Source: Raja brachyura
Taxonomy: Eukaryota
Assembly (NCBI GenBank): GCA_963514005.1
Contig: OY740806.1
Coordinates: 28,830,001 to 28,894,000 of the forward strand
Reading direction: 5' to 3'
Length of the DNA: 64,000 nucleotides
Part shown: piece after piece, positions 7,911-45,323 of the stretch
Layout of the letters: the number at the start of each line of letters is the position of its first letter
How positions within the stretch are numbered: the first letter of the stretch is position 1
Position numbers and translations under genes: made by a program
Notes under the pieces: model-generated
Told to the model about the DNA's origin: nothing
Database searches by the model: none
Seen by the model: the letters and a program-made list of their open reading frames with translations, nothing else

Positions 7911-9648
7911 CTAACATATAACAGCTCAAGCAATGCAGATGACTCCATATAGTGAATACTCAAAATCACAAATACTTCAGTCACAAGATTAGAATGGAGA
8001 TCATTGATCATTGTGGAATCATACCGAAATGTAAATTTTCTCTTTAATACTGTAGCTTTGCACTGTTTCAGTTACTTCCCTGGCTGCAAAATTCTTTGGT
8101 CATGAAGGACACTTTAGTTTGTCTTAGTTTGTCTTCTCTCTTCAACCTTTGTAATTCCTGGTGGTGGAGGCAGATACATGGAAAGTAGAATCCTCCAGGC
8201 CACTGATTTGCATCAATGGATTGTGAATGTTGTAATATGAGAGGTTGTTAGACAAAGAAACCGTAGTGTGAGACTGACATACCCATTGATACCCAATTCT
8301 GTATAACTTGCGTAGCCTTTTTTTCTAATGATTCATTCCAGGATGGAAATGTGAAAGGCAAGAGATCATAGTTTTAAGGTCCGAGGAGAAAAGTTTAATG
8401 AGATCAGCAAGGCGATTTTTTTACACAGCAAATAGTAAATGCGAGAAAGCATTGCCATGGGTGGTGGTGCAAGTAGATGCGATATTGGCCTTAAAGAAGC
8501 TTTTAGATAGGCACTTGGTGATGCAGGGAATGGAAGGATATGGATCACATGCAGGCAGGGGAGATTAGTTTATTGAGGCATCATGCTCGGCACAGACATG
8601 ACGGTCTGATGAATGTATTCATGTGCTATTCTACAGATGGTTTATTGGACAAAAATAATGTATTTGGAAGGCAAAAGCATTTTGATGCGAATCTGTGGGC
8701 CGGTTGCAGCATGACAGCACATATTTATGTCAATTACATTTGATTAGCTGTGATTTTTTCCCCATTGTCTTTCAAACAAACTGATACTTGTCATGCTTTG
8801 GCCTAAAGGAACTTCATTGCTTGTAATGCATTAAAACCTTTGTTTTTGTGAAATTTTGGCTAAAGCAAATAAAATCATTATCAAAAACAGATACTTTTCC
8901 CAATGCTAACAATAAACGCAACATTTATGTGGTAAATTACTTATCACTGATGTTTTACATGCAGAACCCTGGCTGAGGCAGTGCTCCATTGTGGGTCCTC
9001 GACCTTCTAATAAAGTATTCAACTTACCCATTGGCAGGCTGGCCTCCTCTGATTTAGATTTCTCTTTTGCTTCAGTTCCCTGGGTACCATTTGCATTAAT
9101 CATCATGACTCTCGTGCACGAGGTGTTCCAAAGACATGATCATTGATATTCTGTTTAATTCAACATGTACACATATCAGTGAGAAAGAGTGGGACGGTTG
9201 TCAACGTTACAATTCATAAGAACACGTATTCATCATAAAATATGTTTCTCTAATTGGATTTCACAATGTTGCAATTATTGAAAGTGATAGGATAAACTGA
9301 GTAAGCATTGGATAATTTGCTAAATGTTTAAATATTTAAGCACCATTAATGTGAAGGAGTGTTGCTGGATATAACTCAAATGTTTTGGGAAGACTGAACA
9401 CATGATTAAACTTATGACTTGTGTTTAATGATAGTATACATTAGGTGGCAGTAGATCATCACAATTGTGCTTTACCTTTTCAATGTAAATGTAGGTTGTG
9501 TTTCTTTTGCTATGCAGTAGCTGTACAGTGAGAGTAAGTATGAACAGTTGTGTTAAGGGCCTGTCCCACTTGGCCGGCATTTACACAACAGATCGATAGT
9601 GACTGACGTGCGACCGCACAGCCGCCTGGAGCGTGTGACGTCATTTGA

Positions 9649-9837
9649 AGATAGACACAAAATGCTGGAGTAACTCAGCGGGACCGGCAGCATCTCTGGA
9701 CAGAAGGAATGGATGGTGTTTCGGGTCGAGACTCTTCTTCAGTCTGAAGAAGGGTCTCGACCCGAAACGTCACCCATTGCTTCTCTCCAGAGATGCTGCC
9801 GGTCCCGCTGAGTTACTCCAGCATTTTGTGTCTATCT
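9649..9837. repeat. Fold-back palindrome of a Penelope-derived end (94-bp arms, centre 9743)
   Basis: Arms are reverse complements around cttcttcag-T-ctgaagaag, with a few mismatches. Confidence 0.92.
9744..9771 (+). ncRNA. Minimal type I hammerhead ribozyme-like core
   Basis: CUGAAGA-A-[GGGU-CUCG-ACCC]-GAAAC-GUC. This matches the minimal hammerhead architecture described in Penelope-like elements. Stem I pairing is weak. Confidence 0.6.
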
Positions 9838-11459
9838 CCATTCGTCTTGGCCCCGCTCTGGGAGTAGGAGTGGGGGCGGATCCGGATCCGCAATGGTTGT
9901 GAGCCTCAGGCCGAGCTCGGCGATCGTTTGCCTGCTTCTGCTGCTGTTGGAGGTGAGACGTTGCGCCGCGCCAATGTCTTGGGCCTGTCCCACTTTGGCC
10001 GTCAGTTACGCGACAGGCCGGTGGCGCGCAAAGATTTTGTGCAGGGCGAAGTCCATACTCATCCACACGACTGCATGCGCCTGTCCCGCGCTGCACAGAC
10101 GCTAGCAGGTCGCATAAATGGCGCGCGAATGACGGCCAAGTGGGACAGGCCCTTTAGGTTCAATTTGATACTCAGCTAGATGAGGAAGAGATAACTAGCA
10201 GTCATTCGTGTTCGTGATCGCTTTGCGTGATCACCATGAGAGCAGACTGCTCAGATCAGGTACTGAAAAACTTCCAATATAGTCAAGAGTGTTTAATTGT
10301 CATGAATCCATGACGGAACAATGAAATTCATACTTGCAACAGCTTACCAGGCCTGTGCACACAATACTTATTAATAACACATAATAAACATTAGTAAACT
10401 AATAACTAATAAAGAGTGCATGTGTCATTACCAGCCAGCTCTTTCAAAACAGGGTAAAACATGAAGATTTTTATATAAATGCTGCTTTAGCACGGATTCC
10501 ATAAATTAAAACTGGGTAAGTTTGCATTTTTTTTAAATGCATTCAACTAATATTTCCTTGAAAGAGTTTCATTGTTCTGTTGTCGGTACATATGATAATT
10601 AAACACTCTTGACTTGACTCTTCATTCTTCATTGAAGAACTTGGTGGACTGTGGCCCTTTACAGAGCTCTGTGAAAATATTAAAATGCTGTATCACATTC
10701 TGCAATGTGATACAGCATTCTCCTTGCTTTAACATGGTTCGTTGCTGGCCGGTCATAATCCAAAGCTCTGTAACTCCAGTCAAAAATTAATATTAAAAAA
10801 CAAGTTAAGAAGGACCTTGCACCATTTAATGCCTGTCAGGTGTCCAGGGAACCATTGTCAACATTGTCAATTGCAGGGAGTAAGCCACACGTGATTTACT
10901 TCCTGCTGTGTGCAGGGTGAAACAGAATATTGCTGAGATCCACTCTTGAGCTATTCAGTTTCTAATATGCCTCTGTTATACTGCAGCCTCTGGCCATAAT
11001 AAAGTACAAAAGGACGATAAAAGCACAGCACATAGATCAACGATTTCAGCATTTTTCCAAATACCCTAAAATGACAAGTTACTATTTTTTCCACTAAAGA
11101 CTTCAACTCTGTGTCCAAGCATTAGTGTCAGTTTCCAAACAATGTATTTAATGGACTTGGCTACTAATTGAGACAGTTTCATTTTTTTTAATAGAAGCCA
11201 GAATAATTAAAATGCTTTTGAGTCGCAACTTGAGAAGGATTATTACAGAATATAATCTTAAAATTTCTTTAAGTTTTAAAACTTGAATGCATATATGTGT
11301 GTGTTATGAGTGACCCAATTAATTCCACTGTGCGACATGCAGATATTTCAGTGATGTTTCACATATTTCTTCAAAGCCTGTTTATTTCTTATTTTGAGGG
11401 AATTGAGATAAAAATACAATGATTATTATCTTTGCTAATCTGAGAATATGTAGAATGAA

Positions 11460-33905: not shown

Positions 33906-34077
33906 CCCGACGTTCGGCAGAACCTTGCTGATTAGGATGACATTGGCTTCGCAAGGAAATTCTCATTGTTGATTAGTGTGGCTTATCAGATGTGTGACAA
34001 ATGCTCACAGCTTTTATTTCCTGTTTCTCAAAGGAATTTTATTTTAATTATTACAACTGCTCCTTGATTTATTTGTT

Positions 34078-34541
34078 TTGTATATCGGCAAGAGCAAGTG
34101 CAGGCTCGGCGATCGTTTCGCTGAACACCTCCGCTCAGTCCGCCTTAACCTACCTGATCTCCCGGTTACTCAGAACTTTAATTCCCCTTCCCATTCCCAA
34201 TCTGGCCTTTCAGTCCTGGGCCTCCTCCATTGTCAAAGTGAGTCCCAGTGCAAATTGGAGGAACAGCACCTCATATTTTGCTTGGTTAGCTTACATCCCA
34301 GCAGTATGAGCATTGAATTCTCTAACTTCCAGTAGCTCTTGCTTTCCCTCTCTCTCCATCCCTTCCCTCATCCCAGTTCTTTCACCAGTCTTACTGTCTC
34401 CGACCACATTCTATCTCTGTCCCACCCACTCCCCTGACATCAGTCTGAAGAAGGGTCTCGACCCAAAACGTCACCCATTCCTTCTCACCAGAGATGATGC
34501 CTGTCCCGCTGAGTTACTCCAGCATTCTGTGCCTACCTTGA
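34078..34541 (+). mobile_element. Penelope-like element 3' end encoding part of a GIY-YIG endonuclease
   Basis: YIGKSKCRLGDRFAEHLRSV...FNSPSHS...KLEEQHLIFCL.SLHP.SMSIEFS. Followed by a 3'UTR with ctgaagaagggtctcgacccaaaacgtc (hammerhead-like, GAAA changed to AAAA). Confidence 0.9.
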
Positions 34542-36215: not shown

Positions 36216-36303
36216 CTCTGATTCCTGAGGTTCTTGGTGAAGAAGGTTATGAGAAAAGTTGGCAGCTAGTGCTGGAATCTCTGCAGGATCCTGTGATAAA
36301 CAG
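36216..36303 (+). CDS. SNX19: SNX19 penultimate coding exon
   Basis: Pyrimidine tract cttttttcttctattttgacag|, donor AACAG|gttggt. 88 bp, phase-compatible with the previous exon (G+CT=Ala): ALIPEVLGEEGYEKSWQLVLESLQDPVIN(R), matching the SNX19 motif SW.LVLESLQ.P.INR. Confidence 0.95.
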
Positions 36304-36929
36304 GTTGGTCCACTACAGACCTTTAGATTTGCCAAGTTCAGTTTTGTACTTCGGTTGAGTTGCCAGGCTGAGAATTCACTCTGAATTGAAATGCCCTGTA
36401 GTGTTCATCTTCGTTAGAAGAAAATTATTAGATTAGTATGTTTAATGAAAACTATTGCTGAACAAAAGAAATGCATTCAATCTTGCTCTAATACTTATCT
36501 ATCAGAAATAGTTAAGATTTGTTTTTGGCAATATCCTTATAGATCACTTTTACTGTATTTTTATATGTGTGAATAATGAGAAATTAGAAAATAATGTTGT
36601 CCACTTACTGTATGCTCCAATCCTACTGAGATTTAAAGTGCATTCCAGATGTGATGATCACTAAACACACATAATTTATTTATCATCCATTTAATAACGT
36701 ATGACATAATAAAAGCTTCTCAATTTCTCTATCACCCAGGTTATCAGTGTGGAAACGGTAGTGATACAAACTCAGTAGGCGTGAACTCAGTTGGCCAAAT
36801 TGCTGGTTTCAATGCTGTATCTCTAAAATGTGATCTGTATCTCTAAAACCACATGCATGCTGCAATGGGGCAACCTGAACTGCACACAATGCTCTGAATG
36901 CAACTTAATCAAAGACTTTCTGCCTTTGG

Positions 36930-37390
36930 ATTTTTGCATGCAGTTCTGGTCACCCGATTGCAGGAAAGATTGCATACAAACATGTGAACACTTTAAAGAG
37001 GGTGCAGAGGAGATTGACCATAATGATGTCTGGAATAGAGGGCTTCAGCTACAGGGAAAGGTTGGATAGACTTGGAATGTTTTCTCTTGAACATCGGAGA
37101 TTGAGGGCAAACGATAAAAGTTTATAAAATTATGAAGGGCATGGATAGGATTGACAGTCAGAACCTTTTTCCCAGGGTGGAAATGTCCAACACTGGAGGG
37201 CATAGCTATAAGATTAGTTTAGAAAGTTTAACAGAGATTTGTGTGGCAAGCCCTGAGTGTGTCGGAAGTGAATATGAAAGTGGGATAACATGGAACAAGT
37301 GGGAAAAGGTAATCGATGGTCAGTGTGGACTTAGTGGGTTGAAGGACCTGTTTCCACACTGTATCTTCCAATCAATCAATTAATCAAAGA
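36930..37390 (+). mobile_element. CR1/HER1-like fragment fused to a SINE tail
   Basis: QFWSP..RKD and MKGMDRIDSQNLFPRVEMSNT.GH motifs; (caat)n tail. Confidence 0.75.
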
Positions 37391-38669
37391 TTTAAAACCG
37401 TGTTTGCTGCTTTATGGTTTTATATGTTTGATTATCAACTTCTTACTGCTTTCTTGTAATCCTCATATTTTAACAAGTGCTCTTGACTTCTTCAGATTTG
37501 CTCAGTTGACTTCAAGCATATGAACTGAGCAAGTGTCAGATTTTCCACCTATCTAAGGCAACAAAGCTGCCCAACAGCTTTGGAACTGCACAATCCATTC
37601 CTAATAGAATGTACTGAGGCATGACAGATAAAATGCTTCACATGTCTACTGGCGATATTGGGAGGATGTTCATATTGCTTCTTATACTGAAAATTTAAGG
37701 TGAAAATTGACTGCAGAATCTCTCAGTACAGAAGTCTTGAGAAAACTCAGTCTCAGCTGTAATTAGAATTCAGTCAATATCAAATTGAATGAAAATTACT
37801 GTACATAACTTGAACCAAATGTTTGGTAGCAATGTTGTCTACTTTGCCAATCTTTATGAGACCAAATGAAATCTGCATTTAATTTTTTTGAAGCCTTTTT
37901 GGCTCCCAGTCGGTACTATCAGCACAATGGTGGCATCTCACGGGATTAGAAAATGAGGGAGAAAAAGCCTTGCTTTGTAGCTCAGTCTTGGAAAGCAGTG
38001 CAGGATATATTTTTCAAGTGACCCATAGCTCATAAAACATCTTTTTTTAAATTTCAAACAAATGAAAAGATCTGGAGCCATTTACTTGCCACCTTTTTAT
38101 TGGAAAACCTTTGTATATATTATGTTATAAAAAATGATTAGAAATCGTTTTTGGTATAGTGGACACATTTTCCACATGCTGGATTGCATTTAAGCAAGCC
38201 AACTAAACCATGAATGATTTTATGTTGCTTTAAATAGTGCATTTCTTGGGGAGACTCTGGCTGCAGGCAACAGATTTTTAGGGTTCCGTCAAAAAATTGG
38301 TAGGAAATGCATACCAAATGTACACTTTCATTGCCAAAATTTGGTCTAATATTGTGAGTCGAAATCCCAAGATCCCCACTTTATGCATACCCAACAGCAT
38401 TAACAAGTATTAAGTCTAGGAATTTGGTCTTTGTTGGTAACAAGGTCCCAGGATAAATCCTGACTCAGTCTCTCATAAATCTAGTGTGGTTTGCAGTTGC
38501 ACTTTAGTCTTGACTATATTTTCTTTTCCTTTCGGACCTCAAAGGTTGCGGATTCCAACAATCTTGAATTCTAGCACTTCTCCAGACCTTCTATCTCCCT
38601 TTACCTTTCTCTACATCCTGGCAATGGAGGGTATTCCATTGACTACATGTCTCCCACCAGGACCTGCCA

Positions 38670-41590
38670 TAGAAAACAAAACAGCACAGGACAGGAACAG
38701 GCCAATTTAACTAAACTCCTCAGCCTGCGCATTATCCATATCCTGAATATTCATTTGCCTATCTAAGTCTCTTAAACACCACTATCGTATCTGCCTCCAC
38801 CACCAACCCTGGGAGCATGTTCCAGGTACTTTGTTTTCACCACACCTTCTGATTTTATAATTTTTGTGTCATCCATAAACTTACTAACTATGCCATCATA
38901 ATATCCAAATTGTTAATATAACTAACAGACAACAGTGGACCCAGTTCTGATCTTTGTGGCACACCATTTGTTACAGGTTTCCTGCCTTCATTTTTTTAAT
39001 TTTTTTATTTAATTCTTTATTTCGAACAGAATAAAACAATAAAAAGCAAGTGTGAAACACCATACACAAAACAAAACAAGAATATTTATAAAGTGTCATA
39101 AACAGTATCTATAAATAAATGAAATCGTATGTCCGAAAAGGAGCAGGAAGAAGCCAAAGTTTATTAATTCCCACCCCTTATTCAACTGCTTAAAATTATC
39201 TTATACAAATTTAGCCTTAAAAACAATCCTCTTCCACCATCTTCTGTGTTCTGCCTTCAAACCAATTTTCTATTCAGTTGCTTGGTTTGTCCTGGATCCT
39301 TCCTAACCTTCCAGACCAGGTACCTTGTTGGAAGTCTTGCTAAAGTCAATCTGTAGACAATCTTATTTTTGTCGCCTCGTCAAAAAACTCAATAGATGAG
39401 ACAATTTCCCACTCACAATGCGATGCTGACCATCCCTAATCAGTCCTTTCCTTCCCAAGTGCATCTTGTTCCTGTCTCTGAGAATCCCCTCCAGTAACTC
39501 ACCCACCAGTTATAAGGGTCATTGCCCAGGCTTTTCCTTACAGCCTTTCTAAATAAAGGCACACCATTCGCCACCCTTCAATCTTCTGGCATCTTGCCTG
39601 TGCCTTTCTCAAATTGTGCCCACAATTACTTCCCTAACTTCTCACAATGTACTTGGACACACTTGATCAGGTCTCAGGGACTTAGCTACCGTATTACATT
39701 TTAAGATGTTCAACATTGATTTATACCAATGTTGATTTCAAAAGTATAAATATATAACTGATCAGTAACAGTATAATGGTTGTTCACTCAACTTTTGATG
39801 TTTGACTCATGCTCCCAGACAATGTGAGCCAGTTACCACATGTTTTCACTAAAAGTGTTGAAAATCATGTTCAAAGTTTCCTTGATCATAATGGCCGAGG
39901 TTAGTAGTGGAGGAGTGTTTGTCTGACTGGAGGATTGGAGTTAGTGTTCCACAAAGATCAGTGCTGGGACCTCTACTGTTTGCGATATTTATGGAAACTT
40001 GGATGAAGTAGATGGGCTGATTAGTAAGACATATTAAAATGGTGGATAGTGAAGAAGGTTGCCAAAGAGTTTAGCAGGATATTGATCATTTGGATATAAG
40101 ACAAGAAAATTGGCAGATGGAGTGTCAACAGGAGAGATTTTGTGGTTTAGGTCCATAGCTTACTAAAAATGGACCAGCTTCCCTGTAACCACCAGACTAT
40201 TGAACAATACATACTGCAATTGATCTCTGAACTACGAACTGTTCTGGTTGCACCAGGGACCTCGGACGTTGTTTTGTTCTGAACTATATTGTTTTTTGCT
40301 CATTTATTGAACTTATTTTTATTTGTTTGATTGTACTTTCTATAAAGTATTGTGTTTACAACTGTTGTGCTGCTGCAAGAATGTCATTGTTCCGTTTCTG
40401 TACATATGATCACTAAACACTTTTGTATCAGCATTGAGTATAATAGTCAGCAAATCGTGTTCCAGCTGTGTAAGACTTTGTTAAGGCTACATTTGGAGTA
40501 TAGTGTGTAGTTACGGTTGGCGCATTACAAGATGAATGGTGGGGGCTTTCGCGAGGGTGTTGAAGAAGTTCGCCAGGAATTTACTGGGATTAGAAGATTT
40601 TGGTTATGAGGAAATGTTGGATAGACAGATTGTTTTCTCTGAAGGCACTGATAGGGTAGATAGAGCCTTTTTCCAGGGATGGGAATGACAAATATTAGAG
40701 AGCGTAGGTTTAAGGGGGGGGGGGGGGGGGTACATGTAAATAACATGCATGATAGGTATATAGATAGGAAGGGTTTTGTTGGCATAACAAAGATGGACCA
40801 AAGGACCTGGTTCTCTGCTGTTTAGAACAAAGAATATACAGCACAGGAAAAAGCTATTCGGAGCAGTAGTCCGTGCCAAACAGAATACCAGGTTAATCCT
40901 ATCTCCTCAGCTTGCATGTGATCCATATCCATCCATTCCCTGCATACCCATGTGCCTGTAATAAACCTCTTCAAAGCCAATTGTATATCTGCCTCCACCA
41001 CCACCCCTGAAAATGTGTTCCAGGCATCCACCACTCACTGTGTAAATGAAACCCACAGCACCTTTAAACCTTGGTCCTCTCATCTTAAATCTATGCCTCT
41101 AGTCTTTGACATTTCCACGCTGGGCATAAAGGATCTGACTGTCTACCCTATTTATACCTCATAATTTTATGTACTTCTATCAGATTTCCACATAGGCTCC
41201 GAAGCTCCAGAGAAAACAAGCTAAGTTTGCCCAACCTTTCCTTATAGCCAATACTCTCTAATCCAGACACTATTCTGGTACTGTTCTGCACCCTCACCAA
41301 AGCTTCTATATCCTTCCTGTAATGGACCAATACAGCTTTATGACTGTGCGTGGTAAATTTTTATTTACACAAACAGTAGGCGCTGGAACAGGGTGGTGGG
41401 GGGGGGGGGGGGTAGTGAAAGCAGATACGAAAGTGACATTTAAGAGACATTTGGAAAGGCGCATGAACAGGCATGGGAAGGAGGGATACTGATTATGTGC
41501 AGGTGGATTCGATTAGTTTAGTTTAGCATCATGGTTGAAACAAACATGACTGATGTACTGAAGGGTCTATTCCTCTGCTGTTCTATAGTG
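38670..41590. mobile_element. Cluster of nested CR1-type fragments in both orientations, with Rex-tail pieces
   Basis: VPQ.SVLGPLLF (39945-39985), RLHLEYSV, YKERLGKLSLFSLELR.L.GNLIEV (minus strand) and several CR1 3'UTRs. Confidence 0.75.
38991..39214 (-). mobile_element. Poly(A)-tailed 3' end of a different non-LTR element nested in CR1
   Basis: Minus strand ends aataaagaattaaataaaaaaattaaaaaaa and interrupts CR1-like sequence at cctgcctt / gcctt. Confidence 0.5.
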
Positions 41591-42429
41591 TTAATAATAG
41601 AAATATTAGTTGTTTTAGTGTTTCTTGCTGGGAAGTAGTAAAGTTGGTTTCCGAAAGCTATAATAGTACACTGGCCACGACTAGTGAATGGAAATAATTT
41701 TGAGTATTCTCCTGTGGTGCATGTTTTTATCACTTATTCAACTTGTATTACAGAGTAAGTAATGGATAAAATACTATTGAGCGTAAAGAACATAAAATAT
41801 ATTCCAGATAGAAACTCATTGTGGCAATCAATGAAACCTGCTCTGGGCAAAATATTGAATACACTTGCAGTTTAAAACATTATTTTGAAAGGACCAAGTG
41901 TCTTTATGATTCAGTTTAGTCCTTCATCTTCTTTGTGTGCAGCAAATTGATTTCAACAGTTCATTATTTCAAGTTAATCATAAAAGTTTGGTATGAAACC
42001 TTTGCAATGCATTTTTTGTACTTTGAAAGCTAAAGAGGAGACATTACTGTGTGTTATGGAAATTCTTCTTACAGATGTATTAATACTCAGCAAGTCAAAT
42101 TGTCTACCTCCATTCCTTCGTACAACCTTTTATTTTTAAAATTAATGTCTGATTTCTGACAGGGAAGTTTTGATCTATCAGAGACCATAAGCAAATTGTG
42201 TGTGGGTGCATTGGTTTCTCATCCACCACAGCCTAGTTGACATTGAGAATAAAGCCAAATTGTGTTATTCCATAAATATTGATGCCAAGGATCAAAGATG
42301 CTTCTTTTTAAATCTGCAGTAACGATAATCTACTGCAAGATAAATAGTCTTTGATTGTTATGCCTTCACTATAACTGATGTTGACACACTAGCTTTACTT
42401 CTAATTAATTTCATATTTTCAAGCTCTGC

Positions 42430-42800
42430 TCCCTCGCTGATTCTCTCCCATTCATTGAACCAGATCGATTGAATCCTCGGTGTCATATTTGACCCTAGCT
42501 TGAGCCTCAACTATTTATCTTTGCCATCACAAAGACACTAATATAATACTGCCTGACTTTGCCTCAACCAAAGGTCAGCTGCGATTGATCCATGCTTTTC
42601 CTGCCAAGGTTTGACTGTTCCAATGCCCTGTTCCACTTTTTGTAAACTTAAGATAATCTAAGACACTGCTGCCTCTGCCCTGCTCCAATTCAACCACCAT
42701 CCATGTGCTTGCTGACCTTATTTGACTCAATGTTAAACAACATGTTAATGTTAAAATTTGCATGTTCGCTTTAAAGTCTCTTTATATATTCTTACCTCTC
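42430..42800 (+). mobile_element. Ancient L2-type LINE fragment
   Basis: LGVIFDPSLS and LIHAF...RFDCSNAL motifs. Confidence 0.65.
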
Positions 42801-42821
42801 ACTCATTTTGTAATAGTCTGT

Positions 42822-43044
42822 GTTAAAGAAGGAACTGCAGATGCTGGAGAATCGAGGGTTACACAAAAAGCTGGAGAAACTCAGCGGGTGCAGCAGCATC
42901 TAAGGAGCGAAGGAGATAGGCGATGTTTCGGGTCGAGACCCTTCTTCAGTCTGAAGAAGGGTCTCGACCCGAAACGTCGCCTATCTCCTTCGCTCCTTAG
43001 ATGCTGCTGCACCCGCTGAGTTTCTCCAGCTTTTTGTGTAACCC
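42822..43044. mobile_element. Young palindromic Penelope-derived insertion (95-bp arms, centre 42950)
   Basis: 14-bp TSD ttgtaatagtctgt (42808-42821, 43045-43058). Arms 42855-42949 and 42951-43045 are reverse complements with one mismatch seen (a CpG-type change). Confidence 0.93.
42951..42978 (+). ncRNA. Minimal type I hammerhead ribozyme-like core
   Basis: CUGAAGA-A-GGGU-CUCG-ACCC-GAAAC-GUC, with predicted cleavage after C42978. Stem I is only about 2 bp. Confidence 0.6.
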
Positions 43045-43700
43045 TTGTAATAGTCTGTTATCATTTCCAAATGTGATTGCCATTGATGATTATGTCTTCA
43101 GTTACCAGGTCTTACATTCTGGTATTCCCTCCCTCACTTATTATGAAAGCATCACGATCAAACTTTGTAGTTTGTTTCAAATTCATTTATAATGGTCCTG
43201 TGATGTGCCTCAGGATATTTTGCTGGATAGAATGCCCTTTTTAAAGAATTAATATCGTTTTTGTGGTTATCATTCATTGTCTTGTGAAGATGAGTACTCA
43301 GCTGTCTTCTAGTGACTATATTTTAATAATGCTATCAGATAGGAAGTTCCAGCAATGATGAAGGAACAACAATATATTTCCAGGTCAGGTTGGTGTGCTG
43401 CTTGGAGAGTTTATGAGCTACAGATGGTCGTGTTTTAAGGTGCCCACTACCATTGGTAGTAGAGTTAGTCAGTTTGGTGCTTTCAGTGTGGCCAAAGCAC
43501 GTATGTTGTGTTTTATACATGGTGCACAATGTGCTGGTGTAATTGATAATGCTTCCACTCTGGTTTCAAGATTCAAGAGAGTTTATTGTCATGTGTCCCA
43601 GATAGGACAATTAAATTCTTGCTTTGCTTCAGCACAACAGAATATAGTAGGCATAAATAAATACAGAACAGAACAGATCAGTGTGACCATATACCAATGA

Positions 43701-43733
<33 letters not shown>
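43701..43733. repeat. (AT)n(AC)n microsatellite within a minus-strand Rex-tail fragment (~43562-43835)
   Basis: Direct observation. Confidence 0.9.
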
Positions 43734-44869
43734 TAAATGAACAGATAAAGTGCAATGGGCTATTTAACAATTAGAGTTTTGTTTGAGTTGAATTTAATAG
43801 CCTGATGGCTGTGGGGAAGAAGCTATTCCTGAATTGAGCTGGCACATATGATGAAGAAACTGCTTTGGGCTGGATGAGTGGTTTATGAGGTGGTGCACTT
43901 CTGTCATTTATGTAGGGCCTCTGTGGTGTCAGGGTTCCCAATGCCATCACAAATGATCCTTCTCCATGTTGAGTGGTGAAGCACAGGGGAATCACAGAGG
44001 TCATTTTCTCAAGGAATTTTTGAACACATCCTTGAATCTTTTCATTTGTCTGTCTGGTATTCCATAACAGGGTTTGGAATAGGCCATAAGGTTTGGAAGC
44101 CTGGTGTGAATACGTGCTACCTGAAAGAAGGTTGAAAACATCATCCATCATTTTACTCTGAAAGTAAATTGATTGGGTAGACATTAACCAGATTGGATGT
44201 GTCTCGATGTTTGTGAACAGGATGTACCTGGGCAATGTTCCACATTGCTGGGTAGATATCAATGTATAAATAAATCAGTAGAAGATGTAGTGGTTTTTCC
44301 ACATAAATAAATGGTATATGTGTATTTAGATTGCGTTCATGTTTAAAGTCATTTAACATTTTTATTGGATTGCATCCACTGCCTCCAGGAAGGCGATCCA
44401 AATGCCAATTAAATTGGAGTTGGACGTCATTTACAGCAAGTATTTGGCACACGATTCCAGTCACCGTATTGCATTTTAATCAAAAATACCTAAAGCTTTT
44501 ATTTGGACTAAAATTTAAATTCAGCTACATTCAAAGAACTGTCAAGATTTCAAACACACCTCTGCCTTCAGTCTAACTACCATATGGTGTAAAGCTGCCT
44601 TTTGTTCCTAAGCCTTTGAGGGCATTGTGTACAGCGTTCAGAAATAATGATTGTTTCTTTCTATTTTTTTGAGAGTCCTCAAAGACGAACACATTTCGAG
44701 ACTCTCTGTGGGTATTGCTGGATTTTTAACATTTCAACTCAGTGCCTGAGGGACGTCTCAAATTCTGCGAAACTAAAATGTACCACAGTGGGTTTGATTG
44801 TTTTTTGCATCTTCTAGATGTCATGTGTAACCACAACCTGGACTCTAGATCTAAGGTGAAGGGACACAA

Positions 44870-45050
44870 AGGGGCACAGTGGCACAATGGTTGGCGCTGT
44901 TGCCACATGGCACATCTTTGGAATTTGGGAGAAAACCAGAATGTCAGTTCTGACCGGGTAGTAGCTGTTCGGCATTTGCACTTTTTTCCTCTGGCCATGT
45001 GGGTTACCCCAGGTACTCTGGTTTCTTCCCACATTCTTGCCTTCACACCC
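44870..45050 (+). mobile_element. V-SINE 5' part
   Basis: ggggcacagtggcacaatggtt head and gggttaccccaggtactctggtttcttcccacatt V-domain. Confidence 0.7.
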
Positions 45051-45199
45051 AAGGTCATGTTACCTGCAGCTCTGTATTTGCAGCATAACTTCACAATGCT
45101 TATCCTGAAAGCTGTTTTGAGAATATCTCTATTCCTTTGTGATCATGTTGCCTAATTCTTGTTGTAACTCTGCAATCATTGCACATTCTCCATTAATAG

Positions 45200-45323
45200 A
45201 CATCTGGTCTACTGCATGTGGGACCTGCTGCTTGACTTCCTAATCCCTGAAGCTTCCAACGAGGAGTTCCAAAAGTCTCTATTGACCTCTGCTTCAGGAA
45301 GCTCAGAGAAAATGCTGGGATGA
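45200..45323 (+). CDS. SNX19: SNX19 last coding exon with stop codon
   Basis: Acceptor attctccattaatag|A. AG+A=Arg continues the frame: RHLVYCMWDLLLDFLIPEASNEEFQKSLLTSASGSSEKMLG* (TGA 45321-45323), matching the SNX19 terminal motif RHL.YC..D..L.FL. Confidence 0.95.

What the first reader, a model, noticed from the sequence alone, without database searches (positions are those of the whole stretch)
42822..43058. Young fold-back Penelope-derived element placing hammerhead-like cores head to head in the last coding intron of SNX19
Seen: a 223-bp insertion with an exact 14-bp TSD, made of two 95-bp inverted arms joined at cttcttcag-T-ctgaagaag. The sense arm has an intact CUGAAGA / stem II / GAAAC-GUC core; the antisense arm has a one-base change. 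Established: Penelope-like elements carry minimal type I hammerheads, reported to act as dimers, and often insert with inverted segments. Inference: the inversion point sits at the same position, right at the ribozyme core, here and at 9743 even though the arm sequences differ. That suggests either a stereotyped fold-back step tied to the motif or a self-propagating hairpin element family. In SNX19 pre-mRNA the hairpin would mask the core and create ~95 bp of dsRNA. Stem I is only about 2 bp, so catalysis is doubtful.
Basis: partly seen in the sequence, partly recalled or inferred. Interest (0 to 1): 0.72.

Follow-up and report, generated by a model that had tools for sequence, protein, structure and literature searches.

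The report
Twin-primed head-to-head Penelope stub
This hairpin-shaped insert is one of more than 1,600 like-centred stubs of a Penelope-type jumping gene in an already described layout, and genome-wide counts suggest that its two halves were likely copied separately from the two cut DNA ends and then joined, rather than made by fold-back or by the ribozyme motif.

Summary
The anatomy is real: 14-bp TSD, 34-nt one-sided tail, two 94-bp arms, one central base, in the last coding intron of a Nexin_C gene. It is the end of a Neptune-like Penelope element (RT plus GIY-YIG upstream in longer copies) in the published 'inverted pLTR + tail + TSD' layout; the exact centre occurs 1,636 times. This scan found the layout before in this and other genomes. 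It is not a self-propagating hairpin or an active double hammerhead: each transcript carries one sense core, locked in the duplex. The junction marks a 5'-end hot spot 0-5 nt before the core (39 of 71 copies), not the cleavage site. What is useful is the statistics: relative to the tail the central base is A in 534 and T in 513 copies (69:80 among unmutated ones); either arm can be the longer; 59 of 61 young pairs carry exactly one tail; arms share subfamily variants. This favours two cDNAs primed from both target nicks at two RT start sites and joined at the RNA 5' end, against the published self-priming proposal. RNA starts and cleavage were not tested.

The parts
42808..42821 (.). left copy of 14-bp target-site duplication
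   Evidence: exact repeat; family TSDs 11-19 bp, mode 15, in 62 of 73 young one-tail pairs (10 none found, 1 six-base match)
42822..42855 (-). 34-nt Penelope tail between the two inferred RT start sites (42855 is shared ambiguously with the arm)
   Evidence: matches the tail of ORF-bearing copy L044; present on one arm only
42856..42949 (-). tail-bearing arm, 94 bp, sense on -; core broken by CpG change at 42924
   Evidence: 128 nt with tail, 1 mismatch to L044
42950..42950 (.). central base; T read from the tail side, i.e. the base of the tail-less arm's cDNA was kept
42951..43044 (+). tail-less arm, 94 bp, sense on + (same strand as the host gene)
   Evidence: 0 mismatches to L044
42951..42978 (+). 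minimal hammerhead-like core: CUGAAGA, unpaired A, 4-bp stem II with 4-nt loop, GAAAC-GUC; predicted cut after 42978 but buried in the duplex
   Evidence: no Rfam hammerhead match
43045..43058 (.). right copy of 14-bp target-site duplication
9646..9840 (.). older head-to-head copy of another subfamily, same centre (9743), no tail or TSD seen, nested in a TIR element 9555-10154
36216..36303 (+). host sorting-nexin exon before the insert
45200..45323 (+). last coding exon of the host sorting-nexin gene, ends in TGA

Best explanation
The insert is a protein-less, head-to-head stub of a Penelope-like (Neptune-type) retrotransposon, likely made when both nicked target ends each primed a cDNA on the element's RNA and the two cDNAs were then joined near the RNA's 5' end. 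Shown: layout, TSD, link of this sequence to an RT + GIY-YIG ORF, exactly one tail per pair, balanced centre base, balanced arm lengths, shared variants. Inferred: the endonuclease cuts the two strands about 15 nt apart (TSD); one 3' end starts reverse transcription at the tail end (+128), the other at the arm end (+94), on the same RNA or RNAs of the same source; both run about 100-130 nt to a 5' end 2-4 nt before CUGAAGA (probably the transcription start); the cDNA ends (…CAGACT-3') are self-complementary around a central A:A mismatch and are joined by annealing or microhomology end-joining, either strand winning. The hammerhead core sits at the junction only because it lies next to that 5' end. 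In the host pre-mRNA it would form a 94-bp dsRNA with a masked, probably inert core.
For: Upstream of long copies lies an ORF with YIDD, a C-x4-C-x2-C linker and GIY-YIG (PF01541 E 2.1e-4, 22.0 bits, just under the 22.6 cut-off). Centre base read from the tail: A 534, T 513 of 1,047 (p 0.54); among exact 194-base copies A 69, T 80 of 149 (p 0.41); subfamilies appear in both lists. Of 84 junctions not selected on the tail, 61 are young and 59 of these have exactly one tail, against 41% expected from the 18 of 62 tails on single arms; two-tailed pairs number 23 genome-wide with a looser centre pattern. Of 30 non-symmetric young junctions the tailed arm reaches further 5' in 13, the tail-less in 11, both reach -2 or beyond in 4, equal in 2. 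Tail-less arms end at +85 to +98, 52 of 73 at +93 to +95, where tail-less single copies also end. 39 of 71 core-bearing arms start at -5 to 0. Variant T43C is in both arms in 4 pairs and in one arm in none (7.6 expected if templates were independent). In vitro, the anole element nicks and extends both strands and starts RT at two sites flanking the tail; ribozyme mutants still insert (PMC11167929).
Against: No RNA 5' end was observed: only contigs were available. In vitro the anole protein showed no difference of start site between strands (PMC11167929), so the one-tail rule has no shown cause. Tail-to-tail neighbours do not follow the rule: none/none 12, one 15, both 6, as if independent. Very fast post-insertion inversion of the centre, or assembly error at palindrome centres, would mimic the balance and was not excluded by raw reads. 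Junction samples come mostly from contig C1 and require an intact core, so inversions with both arms cut shorter, or far upstream (L197, L208), are under-sampled. Counts include duplicated copies (L006/L008, L012/L013).
Confidence: 0.72

Rival explanations
1. Fold-back/self-priming: one cDNA (or an antisense RNA, as proposed in PMC3846280) snaps back at the CAG-N-CTG palindrome and copies itself; the centre is later inverted often enough to randomise orientation.
For: Short palindrome at the junction; arms nearly identical and share variants; published proposal.
Against: Needs a fixed centre base and a fixed longer arm; observed 534:513 and 13:11; still 69:80 in unmutated copies, so flips would have to outrun substitution many-fold; 4 of 30 junctions keep the extreme 5' end on both arms, which a snap-back cannot copy; it does not explain why the second arm ends at the site where tail-less single copies end.
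Confidence: 0.15
2. A self-propagating hairpin element: whole fold-backs are transcribed and re-inserted from one or a few masters.
For: 149 copies are identical over 194 bases apart from the centre; an earlier scan note reports one possibly edited hairpin elsewhere (e1-9141068, not checked there).
Against: Both centre types in each subfamily tested (lists); the same asymmetric junctions recur in both orientations to the tail (L049/L069 against L087); outer end of the tail-less arm varies +85 to +98; no convincing A>G or T>C cluster in 105 junction pairs (2 rows flagged, one beyond the arm end, one an older subfamily); RT would have to cross a 94-bp duplex.
Confidence: 0.05
3. The hammerhead sets the junction or is active here: cleavage or the folded core defines the turning point, and the intronic copy cuts the host pre-mRNA.
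For: Boxes kept across subfamilies whose arms differ, with pairing-compatible one-sided changes in stems I and II; the anole ribozyme cleaves when its protein is present.
Against: Arms and single copies retain the core, so the template was uncleaved; the 5' hot spot is 28-33 nt upstream of the cut site; hairpin -209.5 kcal/mol buries the core; helix I is 2 bp; no Rfam match. A folded core acting as an RT stop or the motif overlapping the promoter is not excluded.
Confidence: 0.08

Closest known systems
Inverted-pLTR insertion units of EN+ Penelope-like elements (Adineta Pen2a/Pen2/Pen3a, PMC3846280; general scheme in PMC8557442 Fig. 2 legend)
   Same: Head-to-head inverted pLTR, palindrome at the junction, shorter inverted copy, 30-40-bp tail on one end, TSD, hammerhead motif in the pLTR.
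   Different: Reduced to the last 94/128 nt with no ORF; thousands of young copies; TSD about 15 bp against 8-10 bp; the counts favour two cDNAs over the self-priming proposed there.
PAc, Poseidon element of Anolis carolinensis (PMC11167929)
   Same: Tail bounded by two RT start sites; both strands nicked and extended; AT-rich targets; hammerhead not needed for insertion.
   Different: Here a Neptune-type cysteine linker; no ATG at stem II; start sites lie about 94 and 128 nt after the core; the paper's text read here does not explain inverted pairs.
LINE-1 twin priming (Ostertag and Kazazian 2001; recalled, not read)
   Same: Both target ends prime cDNA on the element RNA; joined by microhomology; gives an inversion within a TSD.
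   Different: In L1 the two cDNAs cover different, abutting parts of the RNA from a variable internal site; here both cover the same 5' stretch from two fixed sites, giving a full palindrome.
Minimal type I hammerheads of metazoan PLEs (PMC4209133) and non-LTR retrozymes (10.64898/2026.07.22.740005)
   Same: Core boxes, unpaired base before stem II, palindromic 15.2-16.2 pair; dual motifs on opposite strands were noted in Schistosoma.
   Different: Helix I only 2 bp (as in the D. virilis variant), helix II 4 bp; cores are inverted, not tandem, so not a retrozyme.

Membership tests
EN+ Penelope-like element insertion | terminal sequence attached to an ORF with PLE RT and C-terminal GIY-YIG endonuclease | tested here: met
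   L028 ORF of 376 aa with YIDD and GIY-YIG (E 2.1e-4, 0.6 bit under the cut-off) ends 231 nt before the same core; the window insert itself has no ORF
EN+ Penelope-like element insertion | inverted 5'-truncated copy adjacent at the 5' end | tested here: met
EN+ Penelope-like element insertion | 30-40-bp tail on one end only | tested here: met
   34 nt; 59 of 61 young pairs have one tail
EN+ Penelope-like element insertion | target-site duplication | tested here: met
   14 bp here; mode 15
Neptune clade | CX2-5CxxC linker between RT and EN | tested here: met
   CNRKRCYTC in L028; motif as given in PMC8557442
Neptune clade | RT phylogeny | not tested
   no reference PLE RTs at hand
Minimal type I hammerhead | CUGANGA and GAAA-UH boxes, unpaired base before stem II, G10.1-C11.1, palindromic 15.2-16.2 | tested here: met
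   right arm on +; left arm lost G16.2
Minimal type I hammerhead | helix I of 4-5 bp | tested here: not met
   2 bp in hairpin and in native context; 2 bp is reported for the D. virilis variant
Minimal type I hammerhead | able to fold, with a second sense core for the dimer | tested here: not met
   core inside a 94-bp duplex; second core is antisense; unconstrained folds of the single arm give no hammerhead
Minimal type I hammerhead | self-cleavage | not testable with these tools
   needs in vitro assay with and without element protein
Non-LTR retrozyme | head-to-tail tandem units each with a type I hammerhead | tested here: not met
   inverted pair; definition
MITE / foldback DNA transposon | inverted repeats at both termini and fixed short TSD | tested here: not met
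   one end carries a 34-nt extra; other end varies +85 to +98; TSD 11-19

The most novel reading that the evidence does not exclude
Penelope-like elements integrate by concerted twin priming from two fixed start sites: one RNP uses the tail-end site on one target strand and the arm-end site on the other, copies the same 5' RNA stretch twice, and the cDNAs meet at the transcription start. This would explain at once the inverted pLTR, the one-sided tail and the junction palindrome, and the central A:A mismatch in over a thousand copies is a built-in readout of it.
Probability: 0.6. Interest if true: 0.62.

Novelty: new member of a known kind. Interest (0 to 1): 0.42.

Why it matters
The locus itself is ordinary transposon debris. 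But how PLEs make their inverted, one-tailed insertions is stated as unresolved (PMC8557442), and the one explicit proposal found is self-priming on an antisense template (PMC3846280). This genome holds thousands of near-identical young events whose centre base, arm lengths and tails discriminate between the models, and they give three sharp predictions for the existing in vitro system: one tail per double product, 50:50 centre base, dependence on both nicks. Side point: such stubs would put many ~94-bp perfect dsRNA hairpins into introns.

Tried and rejected
Rfam: 0 matches at gathering score in 64,000 bases; E-value scan of 42700-43200 gave 13 sub-threshold hits, mostly miRNA hairpin models matching the long stem, none hammerhead. 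Tail-to-tail pairs as a second outcome of one double-nick event: spacers 11-22 nt net in 14 loci fit a TSD, but tail use is independent (12:15:6, p 0.73), so not support. A special fold of arm plus tail (tail pairing with the core and with AGAUGCUG): seen in the young subfamily, z only -1.5 and -1.1, and +1.8 and +0.6 in two older copies; kept as a lead only. Cap-derived G before the 5' AGT: 6 of 9 single arms, too few. Splice acceptor (pyrimidine tract + CAG) as the 5' boundary: 23 of 39 short copies keep the AG and the base or two before it, which splicing would remove. RNA evidence: 24 runs listed, all contigs; 4 laid show the family in two other organisms with loose ends at the same -4 to -2 place, but contigs cannot show starts, strand or cleavage. 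Read support for the host exon joins, for editing and for presence/absence of this insert was not obtained. PDB search with the Nexin_C exon: 1 irrelevant hit at E 0.54. No continuation beyond the tail was found in 130 tail ends, so no full-length element 5' region was seen. Repbase and Dfam are not available here. Literature searches found no paper pairing twin priming with PLE inversions or describing this family; subscription papers (Arkhipova 2006, Evgen'ev and Arkhipova 2005) and supplementary figures (Fig. S2 of PMC11167929; bioRxiv supplements closed) were not seen and may bear on that.

Full report
Observation. The insert is as described, with small corrections. A 14-bp direct repeat (42808-42821, 43045-43058) brackets 223 bp made of a 34-nt unpaired segment, a 94-bp arm, T42950 and the inverted 94-bp arm. 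The arms differ at one base, a CpG change at 42924 that breaks GAAACGTC on the - strand. The + strand folds into one long stem, -209.5 kcal/mol, z -26. The same centre is at 9743 in an older subfamily. A Nexin_C exon joins in frame by GT-AG introns to two further exons and a stop; the insert is in the last coding intron, 36304-45199. That the gene is SNX19 is recalled likeness; no call named it.

What it is. Longer copies of the arm continue upstream into a 3' UTR and an ORF with YIDD, a C-x4-C-x2-C linker and GIY-YIG (PF01541 E 2.1e-4, just under the cut-off). The linker is the Neptune mark given in PMC8557442; no tree was made. The exact 28-base core occurs 50,608 times, the exact 23-base palindromic centre 1,636 times, and head-to-head cores within 30 nt 3,414 times. 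Read on the - strand the insert is inverted copy, direct copy, tail, inside a TSD. That is the layout in PMC3846280 (inverted pLTR, optional 31-bp tail, TSD, palindrome at the junction; passages and Discussion read) and PMC8557442 (passages and one section). Opposite-strand minimal hammerheads were noted in PMC4209133 (parts 1-2 of 4). Earlier notes of this scan report the same layout in this and other genomes and a twin-primed reading in one other genome; they are unchecked notes and not support. My reading was written down before seeing them.

Why the junction is at the core. In 71 arms taken only for an intact core (30 loci plus 40 fetched of the 100 places listed; one fetched locus gave no central match), 39 begin 0-5 nt before CUGAAGA, 6 at -7 to -36 and 26 further up or beyond the fetched flank. 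So single copies stop where the pairs turn. The native context is CCAG-T-CTGAAG. Cleavage would fall 28 nt further in and remove the core, so these templates were uncleaved. CCAGTCT fits the initiator consensus YYANWYY (recalled) and a G precedes AGT in 6 of 9 informative single copies; a transcription start is the likeliest cause but is inferred. Contigs of two other organisms show loose ends at the same place and cannot show starts. The junction is not fixed: 20 of the first 50 listed have the symmetric register, 30 have spacings from 8 to 29 (counted by hand).

How the pair forms. Three models differ in what they predict relative to the tail. A folded-back cDNA, or a hairpin master, fixes the centre base and the longer arm. 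Two cDNAs primed from the two target ends do not. Genome-wide, the centre read from the tail is A in 534 and T in 513 (95% interval 0.48-0.54; a few asymmetric junctions and duplicated copies are included). Among copies exact over 194 bases it is 69 and 80, so the balance is not a slow drift after insertion. From 105 distinct junctions I removed 21 from loci chosen by a tail pattern; of the 84 left, 61 are young (both arms 80 nt or more, 6 or fewer mismatches): 59 have one tail, 2 have two; of the 23 older or other-subfamily rows 18 have one and 5 none. Single arms have a tail in 18 of 62, so independence predicts 41% one-tailed. Of the 59, 29 are symmetric; in the other 30 the tailed arm reaches further 5' in 13, the tail-less arm in 11, both reach -2 or beyond in 4, and 2 are equal (14:11 after correcting two rows with end mutations by eye). 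In 73 young one-tail pairs the short arm ends at +85 to +98, the TSD mode is 15, G41A is in both arms 12 times and in one 4 times (a CpG site), T43C in both 4 times and in one never. Both arms therefore come from one template lineage but play symmetric roles at the junction and different roles at the outer ends. PMC11167929 (parts 1-2 of 4 read; supplement text search without hits) supplies the biochemistry: both strands nicked and extended, two RT start sites bounding the tail, predicted dimer, ribozyme dispensable for insertion. Joining these: nicks about 15 nt apart, one end primes at +128, the other at +94, both cDNAs end in …CAGACT, which pairs with itself around an A:A mismatch, and repair keeps either base. 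In this copy the tail-less cDNA's base was kept.

Against. The in vitro paper saw no strand difference in start sites, so the one-tail rule lacks a shown cause. Tail-to-tail neighbours, which I first took as a second outcome of the same event, use tails independently (12, 15, 6). Very fast centre inversion or assembly error is not excluded without raw reads or orthologues. Sampling is mostly contig C1 and biased to intact cores.

Ribozyme and host. The right arm has the boxes and small features of PLE minimal hammerheads, kept across subfamilies with only one-sided pairing-compatible changes (my subfamily labels A and B overlapped there). Helix I is 2 bp, Rfam finds nothing, the second core is antisense and mutated, and the stem buries the first. 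Activity at this locus is unlikely; in the source element it may be protein-assisted as in the anole. Intronic dsRNA is predicted, not shown.

Novelty. The structure is known and common; this copy is a new member. Searches found no paper that applies twin priming to PLE inversions, but subscription papers, Repbase, Dfam and some supplements were not seen; L1 twin priming is recalled. The preprint on retrozymes (part 1 of 5 and passages) concerns tandem units and does not cover this. Interest 0.42: ordinary locus, useful test of an open mechanism.

Noticed in passing
window 9555-10154: Element with 27-nt terminal inverted repeats (96%) and apparent TTA duplication, Harbinger/PIF-like by recall; it holds the 9743 head-to-head copy and a repeat of its own left end at 9981.
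   Followed up: partly
L033/L034 (G000:C1:1207551-1207760): Head-to-head pair, one tail, both arms starting at -3, with about 150 nt of unrelated DNA captured between them and an apparent TSD outside.
   Followed up: partly
L197 and L208: Inversions with junctions far upstream of the core (direct arm from -145 next to an inverted -328 to -746 piece; -36 against -247), closer to L1-style twin priming.
   Followed up: no
L224-L238, L247-L256: 33 tail-to-tail neighbours with 3-33 nt allowed between them, most spacers 14-25 nt, often inside multi-arm clusters that repeat the spacer: looks like repeated use of one target site.
   Followed up: partly
L022, L054, L082, L207: Recurrent junction with short templated duplications of the 5' end, like abortive extension and re-annealing in polymerase-theta joining (recalled signature).
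   Followed up: partly
L028:1498-1628: Predicted pairing of the tail with the core box and with AGAUGCUG would bring the two inferred RT start sites onto one stem-loop and mask the ribozyme; weak z-score.
   Followed up: partly
window 34048-34540: Older family copy with a GIY-YIG-like C-terminal remnant on + (34048-34332) upstream of a tail-less arm at 34440; about 15-20 further arm fragments lie in the window.
   Followed up: no
whole genome: The exact 28-base hammerhead-like core occurs 50,608 times.
   Followed up: partly
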